DNA of 64,000 nt from the human T2T-CHM13v2.0 reference genome, Homo sapiens (GCF_009914755.1 NC_060947.1); one strand, 5' to 3'. Positions 57,692 through 59,724 are shown, counted from the first letter of the stretch. Numbers and translations are program-made. The notes: generated from the letters alone by a model not told the origin.

Positions 57692-58544
57692 AATGATATA
57701 ATGTGGCAATTCTCGAAATCAAATTATCCCTATTTCCTTGGCGGTTTTTGGTGTTGCTTAATGTTTGTTTGCTTGTTTAGTGACTTTTCTGAACTATTTC
57801 TATAGTCAGTAGTTTTTCTTGTATGTAGCCACCACAAAAGTATCTATTCTTTTAGTTTAACAGTTGGCTAGTGATTGGACAGATATTTTCTTAACCATAG
57901 TAAGATACTGCTGCATCCCAAATTTTCTTAGCAAAAAATATGGCATATTCCATATTGGGGCTGTGGCATTTAAACACCATTATTTCAGTGTTTGGAAGTT
58001 TTGTCAAATTTTATTAGGGTTAGTTTTGGGTCCTTTCTTAGATCATTTAATTGCTTGTTACATAGTCTGAAGGAAAGCAAACACCACTATGAAATAGGTG
58101 GCCTGGAGATGGTTTCTTTGTCCACCTTTTATAGGAAGTGATACTGTCACCCAACACACATTACACTTCTCCCCATTTGTGTTCTGGCAACCTAAACCCT
58201 AATGTTATCCCCATGCACATATGCACAAATAGAAACACCAAGCCCATTTCTCTTCTTGCCTATGGGTTATAATGTTAAGAATGGAAATTTTTCTTCAGTG
58301 CTCAATCCTCACCTAGTCCTTATCCCCAATGTTTGGCTCATGGTAGGCCTGCAAATATGTCTACCTGTCAGTATATAAACCTACTGGCAGGTCAACCCCC
58401 TCCAATTCTCCTGGACCTCACTTTGCTTCTGTCTCACAAACTTGCCTCTTCCCTTCCTTCTCTCTTTTCCCACAATCAGATAACTTACAGAAATACATAC
58501 ACATGTTCTGAAATAAAGGGTTTTTCATAACATGTTGATTTTGT

Positions 58545-58550
58545 TTTAAT
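58545..58550 (-). terminator. Candidate ATTAAA polyadenylation signal of the basic-protein gene
   Basis: ATTAAA on the minus strand 92 nt after the stop, followed by U/GU-rich sequence (tttatttc...tgtgtatgtattt). Confidence 0.55.
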
Positions 58551-58642
58551 TACCACCATCGCTGTTTCATTATGCTGTTGTATCTTGTAGGAGTGTCATT
58601 TTTTTTTACAGCATCTTGGGCCTGGCCTGAGTGCTTTGGCTC

Positions 58643-58783
58643 CTACTCAATCTTTGCTAGTGGCCGATTCTTGGCTCTTTTCACTCTTTTTACCTTTTGT
58701 GGAATTTCTGTACTAGTACTAGACGATTTTTTTCTTGAACTCCCATGAAGCAGTCGTTTTATCACCCTCTGTATCTTCTTCAC
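58643..58783 (-). CDS. Exon 2 of a TP3/TP4/CXorf51-like basic protein: VKKIQRVIKRLLHGSSRKKSSSTSTEIPQKVKRVKRAKNRPLAKIE*
   Basis: Acceptor ctctattgccctttcag|GTG; phase 0, in frame with exon 1; 141 nt to TAG. Confidence 0.8.
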   Translation of the reverse strand: MKKIQRVIKRLLHGSSRKKSSSTSTEIPQKVKRVKRAKNRPLAKIE

Positions 58784-58970
58784 CTGAAAGGGCAATAGAG
58801 TGATCACAAAAGGACCTTGTGTTCGAGGAAGGAGATAGGCACTGAATGAGAAGAGGAGCTTTGTAAAAAGGGACATGGGCTAATGAGGGGGTTTGTGCCA
58901 GGCAGGTAAAGCGTAGGAGACATAGGGGAGGGTGGATCAAGAGAAAAGAGCTTGAGTGAGGTGGTCTCAC

Positions 58971-59114
58971 CTTGCCCCCTTTTCTGGCCCTGGGTTGACA
59001 GGATTTCTTCATCTTGTTCTTCCCTTTTGTGCTTGAGATTAATTGTTCTGTGCTTGGGTTTGATTGCTCCATAACTTTGCTAGATCCCTTCAACTTTCTG
59101 GTAACTTTAGCCAT
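58971..59114 (-). CDS. Exon 1 of a TP3/TP4/CXorf51-like basic protein: MAKVTRKLKGSSKVMEQSNPSTEQLISSTKGKNKMKKSCQPRARKGGK
   Basis: Strong Kozak (tcaacATGG), 144 nt, donor AAG|gtgaga, 187-nt intron; non-repetitive island. Confidence 0.8.
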
Positions 59115-59139
59115 GTTGAAACCCCACAGTAGTCTTCTC

Positions 59140-59260
59140 TACCAGCATATAAAATGCCCATCATCAGGACAATGAGGAGCCACACCCTTTAGCTTTATTT
59201 GTTCATCTAGGCACTTCCCCTGGCCAGTAGGGGTTAAAGGAGCTGTAGACATCACAAAGC
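59140..59260 (-). promoter_or_regulatory. Putative proximal promoter of the basic-protein gene
   Basis: TATA-like AAATAAA (59194-59200) or TTTTATAT (59147-59154); CRE-like TGATGTCT (59247-59254); motif matches only. Confidence 0.35.
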
Positions 59261-59724
59261 ACTCTTGGCTTCTGCCTAATGGTGGGGATGCTGGGGAGAT
59301 CCATGTGCTCTGGTTGGAGACAGGGGCATATCCTTAACATCCCACTAAAAAGCCTTCCCAAAATGACCTGTAATCCCTTCTCATCACTTGTACAGATGGC
59401 AAGAAAAAAGTGATGCCTCCAAGTCTTTCTCCATAGCCACTCCCATTCCATTTTTATTTTGTTCTCTCCCATCCTTCATCATGACCTAATATTTTGGATA
59501 TCTTACCTAAAATCTCTCCAAGAAAATGTGATTATATTTAAGTTTCTGTGTAGATATAAATCACCTCATTCCCCTTCAAAAGATTTATCTTATGCACCTT
59601 GAAGACAATTTCATTCTTGGCTACTACACAAAACTTCCCATCTCACCTTCTTTTTCCAATGTCTGTATAGACCTCTTCAGTTTTCTAGTTTCAGATTGAC
59701 ATAGCAGCTCTTATCAGTCATGAA

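What the first reader, a model, noticed from the sequence alone, without database searches (positions are those of the whole stretch)
58545..59260. Hidden two-exon gene for a 94-aa transition-protein-like (TP3/TP4/CXorf51-type) basic protein
Seen in sequence: an ATG at 59114 (minus strand) in strong Kozak context, a 48-codon exon ending AAG|gtgaga, a 187-nt intron ending ttgccctttcag, a phase-0 46-codon exon 2, and ATTAAA downstream. The product is MAKVTRKLKGSSKVMEQSNPSTEQLISSTKGKNKMKKSCQPRARKGGKVKKIQRVIKRLLHGSSRKKSSSTSTEIPQKVKRVKRAKNRPLAKIE, with 30/94 Lys+Arg, 18 Ser+Thr and only 4 acidic residues. The ORF track splits it into 58719-59114 and 58643-58876, and the basic character stops exactly at the splice sites. 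Recalled knowledge: boar/ram spermatid transition proteins TP3/TP4 and human CXorf51A/B begin MAKV(T/S), and boar TP3 has a block like QPRSRGKVRKI..VKRPLH..SRKK. One short intron is also the layout of TNP/PRM genes. Inference: an intact, possibly unannotated hominoid TP3-like sperm chromatin gene.
Basis: partly seen in the sequence, partly recalled or inferred. Interest (0 to 1): 0.92.

Follow-up and report, generated by a model that had tools for sequence, protein, structure and literature searches.

The report
Human TP3-type spermatid basic protein gene
This is a real, already annotated two-exon X-chromosome gene for a small, very basic protein whose counterparts in other mammals are named spermatid nuclear transition protein 3, so it is probably a sperm-chromatin packaging protein rather than a new discovery.

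Summary
It is a minus-strand ATG at 59114, a 48-codon exon, a 187-nt GT..AG phase-0 intron, a 46-codon exon, a TAG stop and ATTAAA. The product is 94 aa, pI 11.8, with 30 K+R.

It is not hidden. It is RefSeq LOC122319696 / NM_001395872.1 ("uncharacterized", hub table).

A profile search found 26 relatives. [quoted passage not shown] The human protein is 95% identical to orangutan, 91% to macaque and 52-74% to other eutherians. It nests in a supported TP3-type clade.

CXorf51A/B, 2.6 Mb away, are true paralogues. hhalign gives 99.4%, the intron site and phase are the same, and a promoter module is shared.

Extra finding: the same promoter module, and a profile match at 93% probability, link the family to SPANX genes. 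Many stop-riddled copies lie along the X.

Function in spermatid chromatin is inferred, not shown. No boar TP3 sequence, RNA-seq or structure prediction was available. The human protein has lost a Lys-Phe pair found in 18 and 17 of 18 orthologues.

The parts
59247..59262 (-). Upstream conserved motif GTGCTTTGTGATGTCT (-148..-133 from the ATG). The CXorf51 copies read TGACGTCT here, which is CRE-like.
   Evidence: TTTGT is invariant in all 8 aligned family promoters.
59167..59189 (-). Conserved promoter block AAGGGTGTGGCTCCTCATTGTCC (-75..-53).
   Evidence: The block is shared with CXorf51, a SPANX-N locus and X-linked relics. The genome-wide DNA hits that cover it have E 5.8e-8 and 8.6e-6.
59196..59230 (-). 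Positions where the other family copies carry an inverted CCAAT box (CCATTGGCT) and a CCAAT box (GACCAATCA). The human gene reads CTACTGGCC and GAACAAATA.
59146..59154 (-). TATA-like TTTTATATG (-40..-32), aligned with TATATATAG of the family consensus.
58971..59143 (-). Exon 1 (RefSeq). The coding part is 58971-59114: 48 codons from the ATG at 59114 to AAG|GT.
   Evidence: hub table.
58784..58970 (-). Phase-0 intron of 187 nt, GTGAGA...TTTCAG, at the same position as the intron of CXorf51A/B.
58514..58783 (-). Exon 2 (RefSeq). The coding part is 58643-58783: 46 codons plus TAG. It includes the most conserved block, KVKKIQRxIKRLLHGSSRKKSS.
   Evidence: hub table.
58667..58669 (-). Codon AAT (Asn87), where 18 of 18 orthologues have Lys and 17 of 18 have a following Phe. 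This is an in-frame loss of one codon on the human line.
58545..58550 (-). Polyadenylation signal ATTAAA, 31 nt upstream of the annotated 3' end.
   Evidence: hub table.

Best explanation
Shown:
- LOC122319696 is a real two-exon protein-coding gene.
- It is the human orthologue of the eutherian X-linked gene that NCBI names 'spermatid nuclear transition protein 3' in other mammals (precomputed Pfam PF27987).
- It is an old paralogue of CXorf51A/B.
- It encodes a 94-aa Lys/Arg/Ser-rich protein of pI about 11.8.

Inferred:
- It is transcribed after meiosis from a compact TATA-type promoter module. That module is shared with CXorf51 and SPANX, which are testis or spermatid-expressed genes.
- The protein is largely disordered and enters the nucleus through its basic clusters.
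- It binds DNA by charge during the replacement of histones by protamines.
- The one strongly conserved amphipathic stretch (residues 48-62) serves as a contact surface.
- The adjacent SSRKKSSSTST patch serves as a phosphorylation switch that loosens binding.
- In humans the gene may be under weak constraint.
For: Gene anatomy: plus RefSeq NM_001395872.1 (hub table).

Orthology:
- human exon 1 is 90-94% identical to 93-95-aa macaque and orangutan proteins.
- 26 hits, all with precomputed PF27987.1. Eight are named spermatid nuclear transition protein 3 and two '-like'.
- identity is 95% (Pongo), 91% (Macaca) and 52-74% in 16 other eutherians.
- the TP3-type clade of 20 rows has support 96/94, and human sits beside Pongo.
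- in water buffalo a 'STP3-like' gene lies about 5 Mb from CXorf40A-like on chromosome 25 (read here as the X). CXorf40A is recalled to lie near IDS in human.

Paralogy with CXorf51:
- BLASTP 42% over 73 aa, E 2e-11.
- hhalign probability 99.4%, E 8.9e-22.
- the human exons compared pairwise give E 1e-6 and 2e-4.
- same intron site and phase. The upstream region is 65% identical (114 matches against a shuffle mean of 70, maximum 86).

Testis context of relatives:
- CXorf51 is described as testis-expressed (passages of 10.1101/2020.12.29.424738).
- CXorf51 is listed among round-spermatid and sperm RNAs (PMC3627604).
- CXorf51A is disordered by NMR (PMC8481210).

Protein features:
- pI 11.77 and K+R 30 of 94.
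- The highest helical hydrophobic moment, 1.04 against a median of 0.38, falls at residues 49-59, inside the most conserved block.
Against: - No expression, translation or localisation data for this human gene could be examined.
- No paper in the library names LOC122319696.
The TP3 label therefore rests on NCBI's names for orthologues.
- Human differs from 18 of 18 orthologues at Lys87 and lacks the Phe present in 17 of 18.
- The human promoter lacks the two CCAAT-type motifs seen in most other family copies.
- Protein divergence from orangutan (5 of 92 aligned positions differ, plus indels) and macaque (8 of 94) is close to what I estimate for neutral change. That estimate is my own inference, and no dN/dS was computed.
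- Most other human copies of the wider family are pseudogenes.
- CXorf51 deletions are common and were not associated with azoospermia.
- The local Pfam copy gives no hit.
Confidence: 0.7

Rival explanations
1. The human copy is a decaying or dispensable gene. It is still transcribed and has an open frame, but it no longer works as a chromatin protein in man and is on the way to joining the many X-linked relics of its family.
For: - Loss of the otherwise invariant Lys-Phe pair near the C-terminus.
- CCAAT-type promoter motifs are absent where most other family copies have them.
- Amino-acid divergence among catarrhines is near neutral (my estimate).
- In the P0028 search, 10 of the 12 matches at E <= 0.01 carry stops.
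- Common CXorf51 deletions show no fertility association.
Against: - The frame, both splice sites, the Kozak context and the poly(A) signal are all intact.
- RefSeq curators keep it as protein-coding (hub table).
- All 18 aligned orthologues keep the frame.
- A single-codon in-frame loss is mild.
Confidence: 0.2
2. The gene is real and functional, but it is not a DNA-packaging protein. It could be an acrosomal, perinuclear or nucleolar/RNA-binding spermatid protein, as reported for its distant SPANX relatives.
For: - The family link to SPANX.
- SPANX-N proteins are reported in the acrosome, not in chromatin (abstract passage of PMC1831492).
- Lys-rich disordered proteins are also typical of nucleolar and RNA-binding factors (general knowledge).
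- The NMR paper cites Human Protein Atlas expression of CXorf51A in prostate and T cells (PMC8481210).
Against: - Orthologues take their name from a protein purified from late spermatid nuclei (recalled knowledge about boar TP3, not checked here).
- The charge (pI 11.8) is far higher than in the SPANX core, which carries acidic tails.
Confidence: 0.1

Closest known systems
Spermatid nuclear transition protein 3 (TP3; NCBI-named genes in Microcebus, Nycticebus, Eptesicus, Pipistrellus, Myotis, Saccopteryx, Equus quagga and Manis javanica)
   Same: - Same length class (88-95 aa for intact models).
- Same start, MAKVTRK.
- Same conserved core KVKKIQRxIKRLLHGSSRKKSS and the same C-terminal ..RPLAKIE.
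- Identity to human is 62% (Nycticebus), 68% (Saccopteryx) and 70-71% (Microcebus and three bats) for the six named ones in the alignment.
- One supported clade.
   Different: - Human has Asn in place of Lys-Phe near the C-terminus.
- The human gene is labelled 'uncharacterized'.
- The link from these names to the purified boar protein is recalled, not tested.
CXorf51A/B (human, palindrome P17, Xq27.3; 108 aa; disordered by NMR)
   Same: - Two exons, with a phase-0 intron at the same site and of similar length (187 against about 190 nt).
- Shared start MAKVT, the ..STKG(K/R).K basic cluster and the KR(L/P)L(H/R)GSS motif.
- Shared promoter blocks.
- X-linked, 2.6 Mb apart.
   Different: - It is a paralogue, not an orthologue. 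The groups are separate in the tree (96/94).
- CXorf51 has a longer C-terminal part with a YH(R)L motif and an acidic end.
- It is duplicated in a palindrome, with 858 of 860 aligned bases identical between copies.
- Identity to the macaque TP3-type protein is only 42% over 73 aa.
SPANX-N / SPANX-A-D (Pfam SPAN-X PF07458)
   Same: - X-linked two-exon spermatid genes with a phase-0 intron after the Cys-containing basic cluster.
- Same promoter module (genome-wide DNA hit E 8.6e-6).
- Collinear profile match to the CXorf51-like group: probability 93%, E 3.5e-7, and 0 of 60 shuffles as good.
   Different: - TP3-type proteins do not reach the SPAN-X Pfam cut-off. The one with any listed match (P0006) has E 5.4.
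- The direct hhalign of TP3-type against SPANX gives only 29%.
- In the Xp11 SPANX-N locus L016 the family ATG is lost (ATA) and translation starts 63 nt downstream.
- SPANX proteins are much less basic.
TNP1 and TNP2 (the two named human transition protein genes) and protamine P1
   Same: They are small, basic spermatid nuclear proteins encoded by short genes with one intron. They are the functional analogy for the proposed mechanism (established knowledge).
   Different: - No sequence relationship. Scans of the whole Pfam-A library at E <= 10 gave no TP1 or TP2 match in any of the 19 family proteins and exon peptides scanned, and no protamine match for the exon peptides or TP3-type orthologues. 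The one weak Protamine_P1 match (E 2.5) came from long-group protein P0037.
- Those genes are autosomal (recalled), whereas this one is X-linked.

Membership tests
TP3-type family (NCBI 'spermatid nuclear transition protein 3'; Pfam PF27987) | Full-length sequence similarity to proteins carrying that name | tested here: met
   - 10 of 26 hits are named STP3 or STP3-like.
- 59-91% identity to the eight named members in the alignment.
- a single clade, support 96/94.
TP3-type family (NCBI 'spermatid nuclear transition protein 3'; Pfam PF27987) | Match to the Pfam model PF27987 | tested here: inconclusive
   - All 26 hits carry a precomputed PF27987.1 label. One of them is P0003, the read-through ORF that holds human exon 1.
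- The model is absent from the local Pfam copy.
- The local scan gave no hit. I could not score the spliced human protein myself.
TP3-type family (NCBI 'spermatid nuclear transition protein 3'; Pfam PF27987) | Similarity to the protein purified from boar (and ram) late spermatid nuclei | not testable with these tools
   - No boar or ram sequence was returned by any search.
- Papers on it are not in the library.
TP3-type family (NCBI 'spermatid nuclear transition protein 3'; Pfam PF27987) | Expression in elongating spermatids and presence in condensing chromatin | not testable with these tools
   No expression or proteomic data were accessible. Only relatives (CXorf51, SPANX) are documented as testis or spermatid transcripts.
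CXorf51 family | Orthology to CXorf51A/B (108-aa form with the C-terminal YHRL-type motif and acidic tail) | tested here: not met
   It is homologous, but it falls in the other clade and lacks the C-terminal extension. It is a paralogue.
SPAN-X (PF07458) | Score over the Pfam gathering cut-off (22 bits) | tested here: not met
   - P0006, the only TP3-type protein with a listed match, scores 8.2 bits, E 5.4.
- The best CXorf51-like protein scores 18.8 bits, E 0.0025.
- the human exon peptides give no hit.
- Distant homology remains likely.
TNP1 / TNP2 / protamine families | Match to their Pfam models | tested here: not met
   Searches gave no match at E <= 10 for the human exons or the orthologues. 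The presence of TP1 and TP2 models in Pfam-A is recalled. Protamine_P1 appears only as an E 2.5 match to long-group protein P0037.

The most novel reading that the evidence does not exclude
TP3-type genes (this locus), CXorf51-like genes and the SPANX cancer/testis genes are one ancient X-linked superfamily of two-exon spermatid genes.

- All three descend from a single gene with one compact promoter module (inverted CCAAT, CCAAT, GGGTGTGGC, TATA).
- SPANX arose from a basic, transition-protein-like ancestor by losing the first ATG and becoming acidic.
- The human X carries one intact TP3 orthologue, two CXorf51 copies, the SPANX genes and at least ten decayed copies.
- This would also give genes to the long-orphaned 'TP3/TP4' spermatid proteins reported for humans in reviews.
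Probability: 0.55. Interest if true: 0.55.

Novelty: already known. Interest (0 to 1): 0.3.

Why it matters
[quoted passage not shown] To my recollection, only TNP1 and TNP2 are named human genes.

This locus is the best candidate for the human TP3 gene. The human record still reads 'uncharacterized', and no paper in the searched library mentions it. Giving it that identity makes several simple tests possible: spermatid expression, chromatin localisation and infertility variants.

It also ties two poorly understood X-linked testis gene families, CXorf51 and SPANX, to a protein class with a known role.

The gene itself is not a discovery. It is curated in RefSeq, and its orthologues already carry the TP3 name.

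Tried and rejected
- Local Pfam scans of the two exon peptides and of orthologues gave nothing useful at E <= 10. PF27987 is not in the local copy.
- Six-frame search of the window's own genome with each exon peptide found only the gene itself, plus one E 4.6 chance match on contig 18. This was insensitivity, not absence. Paralogues appeared with the more distant protein P0028 and with DNA.
- An alignment cannot be used on this genome.
- The PDB profile search gave only a designed protein at E 0.29.
The disorder and helix statements therefore rest on composition, a hydrophobic-moment calculation and the NMR paper on CXorf51A.
- hhalign of single SPANX-N exon peptides against the family profiles was weak (22%, 16% and 2.7%). 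Only the full-length SPANX alignment gave 93%.
- Literature searches for LOC122319696 (0 papers), for TP3 and TP4 in spermatids, for TNP3/TNP4/PF27987 and for 'nuclear transition protein 3/4' gave only two incidental gene-list mentions. Supplements were not read.
- I first thought the intron similarity to CXorf51 (61-64%) needed a special explanation. I dropped this, because that level fits neutral decay of an old duplicate (my estimate).
- A chance ORF or non-coding transcript is rejected by the conserved spliced frame in 18 species.

Full report
**1. The observation**

- The ATG at 59114 sits in CAACATGG, with A at -3 and G at +4.
- The frame runs for 48 codons and ends AAG|GTGAGA.
- The intron is 187 nt and ends TTGCCCTTTCAG.
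- Exon 2 has 46 codons in phase 0 and ends in TAG.
- ATTAAA lies at 58550-58545.

The mechanical ORF list splits the gene into 58719-59114 and 58643-58876. The read-through pieces are not basic. With the exons joined in a script, the product is 94 aa, pI 11.77, K+R 30, D+E 4, S+T 18, with no aromatic residue. The exon coordinates equal those of RefSeq NM_001395872.1, gene LOC122319696, 'uncharacterized' (hub table). The gene is therefore real but not hidden.

**2. Orthologues**

I could not type the spliced protein. I therefore searched with the read-through ORF, restricted to exon 1. [quoted passage not shown]

I then searched with the macaque protein and with a 14-sequence profile.
- The profile search gave 26 proteins at E <= 1, among the 8000 best-ranked candidates scored.
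- All 26 carry the precomputed Pfam label PF27987.1.
- Eight are named spermatid nuclear transition protein 3: Microcebus, Nycticebus, Eptesicus, Pipistrellus, Myotis, Saccopteryx, Equus quagga and Manis.
- Two are named '-like' (Macaca, Fukomys) and one is named CXorf51A (Eulemur).
- The rest are uncharacterized or unnamed.
- The species cover primates, colugo, bats, carnivores, pangolin, horse, a rodent, tenrec and armadillo.

I aligned human with 18 of these. I left out P0014 (low quality), P0017 (partial), P0018 (a model with retained intron), P0024 (truncated) and P0026. Human is 95% identical to Pongo, 91% to Macaca and 52-74% to the others.

I built a maximum-likelihood tree of 31 rows. 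I left out those same rows except P0026, plus the read-through ORFs P0003, P0027 and P0029, the 822-aa P0036 and P0040. The tree puts human beside Pongo inside a TP3-type clade of 20 rows with support 96/94.

[quoted passage not shown] I recall that CXorf40A lies near IDS in human, so this fits conserved synteny.

**3. Paralogue CXorf51**

An exhaustive profile search of 1.84 billion representatives found 20 proteins at E <= 0.001. They include a second group of 108-156 aa.

One of that group (P0028) located an intact inverted pair at C23:145.07 Mb in the window's own genome. I fetched it as L012. Its reading frames show a two-exon 108-aa gene in each arm. The place fits CXorf51A/B at Xq27.3 as described in PMC8481210 and in the palindrome preprint.

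The evidence for homology is as follows.
- BLASTP of the macaque orthologue against P0033 gives 42% identity over 73 aa, E 2e-11.
- hhalign of the two group alignments gives probability 99.4%, E 8.9e-22.
- Human exon against human exon gives E 1e-6 and E 2e-4.
- The DNA alignment shows the same intron position and phase.

Identity by segment is:

| Segment | Identical / aligned | Identity |
|---|---|---|
| Upstream | 117 / 180 | 65.0% |
| Exon 1 CDS | 88 / 132 | 66.7% |
| Intron | 111 / 183 | 60.7% |
| Exon 2 CDS | 76 / 141 | 53.9% |
| 3' UTR | 48 / 116 | 41.4% |

I re-aligned three segments against 100 shuffles each.
- Upstream gave 114 matches against a shuffle mean of 70.0, maximum 86.
- The intron gave 112 against 73.4, maximum 90.
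- The 3' UTR gave 50 against 46.1, maximum 60.

The upstream region and the intron therefore exceed every shuffle, and the 3' UTR does not.

**4. The wider family**

*Relics.* The P0028 search gave 26 matches at E <= 10, and 17 of them lie on the X.
- Twelve matches have E <= 0.01. Eleven are on the X and one is on contig 12.
- Only the two CXorf51 copies among these twelve are free of stops.

*DNA search.* A search with the gene itself found four further X-linked places, at 119.8, 138.8, 143.6 and 52.08 Mb. Script BLAST showed that the promoter block, exon 1 and the intron also align to the Xq28 relics.

*SPANX.* The 52.08 Mb place is an intact SPANX-N-type gene.
- Pfam SPAN-X scores E 6.5e-18 and 6.2e-8 on its exons.
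- The whole-genome SPAN-X scan lists the same site.

*Shared promoter.* Aligning eight promoters shows one module:
- TTTGTGA(T/C)GTCT
- an inverted CCAAT box (CCATTGGCT)
- a CCAAT box (GACCAATCA)
- AAGGGTGTGGC..TCATTGT
- TATATATAG
- about 40 nt further on, TTCAACATGGC with the start codon.

In the SPANX-N locus that ATG reads ATA. Translation starts 63 nt downstream, at the equivalent of Met15 of TP3-type proteins.

*Profile comparison.* I built SPANX proteins from eight exon pairs in a script and compared their alignment with the family.
- Against the CXorf51-like group, hhalign gives probability 93%, E 3.5e-7, over 72 collinear columns.
- Against the TP3-type group it gives 29%, E 5.8e-4.
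- None of 60 column shuffles came near these scores. The best shuffle scores were 15.5 and 16.1, against 42.3 and 24.7.
- The Pfam SPAN-X model gives sub-threshold hits to P0039 (E 0.0025), P0028 (0.44) and P0006 (5.4).

*Regulation.* The SPANX-N paper reports in-vitro CTCF binding to the -195..-43 promoter fragment (passages of PMC1831492). By my alignment that fragment overlaps this module.

*Prior print.* I found no paper that links SPANX with CXorf51 or TP3. Three of those listed hold both SPANX and CXorf51, and their titles point to incidental mentions. That search does not exclude prior print.

**5. How it probably works**

Shown:
- The charge and composition of the protein.
- A conserved core, KVKKIQRxIKRLLHGSSRKKSS, and a conserved C-terminus.
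- The highest helical hydrophobic moment of the protein falls at residues 49-59 (1.04 against a median of 0.38).

From relatives:
- CXorf51A is intrinsically disordered by NMR (PMC8481210).
- CXorf51 is testis-expressed and is listed among round-spermatid and sperm RNAs.

Inferred:
- Transcription is post-meiotic, from the shared promoter. The promoter is CpG-poor (6 CpG in 1 kb, observed/expected 0.12).
- The protein enters the nucleus through its K/R clusters.
- It binds DNA by charge during the histone-to-protamine transition.
- The amphipathic stretch is the one structured contact.
- The Ser/Thr patch next to RKK is a phosphorylation switch.

**6. Signs of weak constraint in man**

- Human has Asn87 where 18 of 18 orthologues have Lys, and it lacks the Phe present in 17 of 18.
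- The two CCAAT-type motifs are altered in the human promoter.
- Differences from orangutan (5 of 92) and macaque (8 of 94) are close to my rough neutral expectation. No dN/dS could be computed, because no orthologous DNA was available.
- Between the paralogues, the exon 2 coding sequence is less conserved than the intron.

**7. Comparison with what is known, and novelty**

The gene is a member of the TP3-type family by similarity to named orthologues. It is a paralogue of CXorf51, a probable distant relative of SPANX, and unrelated in sequence to TNP1, TNP2 and protamines.

'TP4' is ambiguous, because rat TP4 is an HMGB4-like protein (abstract of PMC5036535 in the listing).

The gene is curated in RefSeq and its orthologues already bear the TP3 name, so I rate it already known.
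- the explicit orthology call for the human record;
- the human-line codon loss;
- the shared promoter module;
- the SPANX link and the map of relics.

**8. Limits**

- No boar or ram TP3 sequence was available.
- No expression or proteomic data were available.
- No structure prediction could be run.
- The PF27987 model was not in the local library.
- Paper supplements were not read.

Noticed in passing
window 58667-58669 (minus strand): Human reads Lys-Asn-Arg where 17 of 18 orthologues read Lys-Lys-Phe-x. This is an in-frame loss of one codon that removes the only aromatic residue of the protein. It happened after the split from orangutan, or it is polymorphic.
   Followed up: partly
G000:C23, about 119.8, 138.8, 143.6, 147.3, 147.94/148.00, 149.77/149.78, 150.2, 150.4, 151.0-151.5 Mb; also C12:273 kb (L004-L011, L013-L015): Many stop-riddled copies of the CXorf51/TP3-type family lie along the long arm of the X. 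Some are inverted pairs. One apparently intron-less copy lies on contig 12. Several still keep the promoter block, exon 1 and the intron.
   Followed up: partly
L016:1677-2005 (minus) = G000:C23 about 52.082 Mb; also L017-L034: SPANX genes share the promoter module of this family. In the Xp11 SPANX-N locus the family start codon reads ATA, and translation starts 63 nt downstream. The profile match of SPANX to the CXorf51-like group has probability 93%.
   Followed up: yes
L031:1570-1575 (+) against L032 mirror copy (G000:C23 about 139.8985 and 139.8933 Mb): One arm of a SPANX-A/D-type inverted pair reads ATG|TTAAGA at the exon 1 donor, where the other arm reads ATG|GTAAGA. In this assembly that copy lacks the GT donor.
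   Followed up: partly
L012:2524-2655 (+) and L012:7934-8065 (-): The two CXorf51 copies are identical at 858 of 860 aligned bases. They differ by one residue (Ile/Val) at the end of exon 1. The spacer between them holds a long pyrimidine/purine-type simple repeat that reads open in several frames.
   Followed up: no
window 59196-59230 (minus): The human TP3-type promoter has CTACTGGCC and GAACAAATA where most other family copies keep an inverted CCAAT box and a CCAAT box. The CRE-like TGACGTCT of CXorf51 reads TGATGTCT here.
   Followed up: partly
window 58643-58970 against L012: Between the paralogues, the exon 2 coding sequence (53.9% identity) is less conserved than the intron (60.7%). This hints at fast divergence of the C-terminal half.
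   Followed up: no
P0018 (Equus quagga model, 106 aa): This annotated 'STP3' model carries about 20 extra residues ending LLPFQ. That is the translation of the polypyrimidine tract and AG of the intron, so it looks like a mis-predicted acceptor.
   Followed up: no
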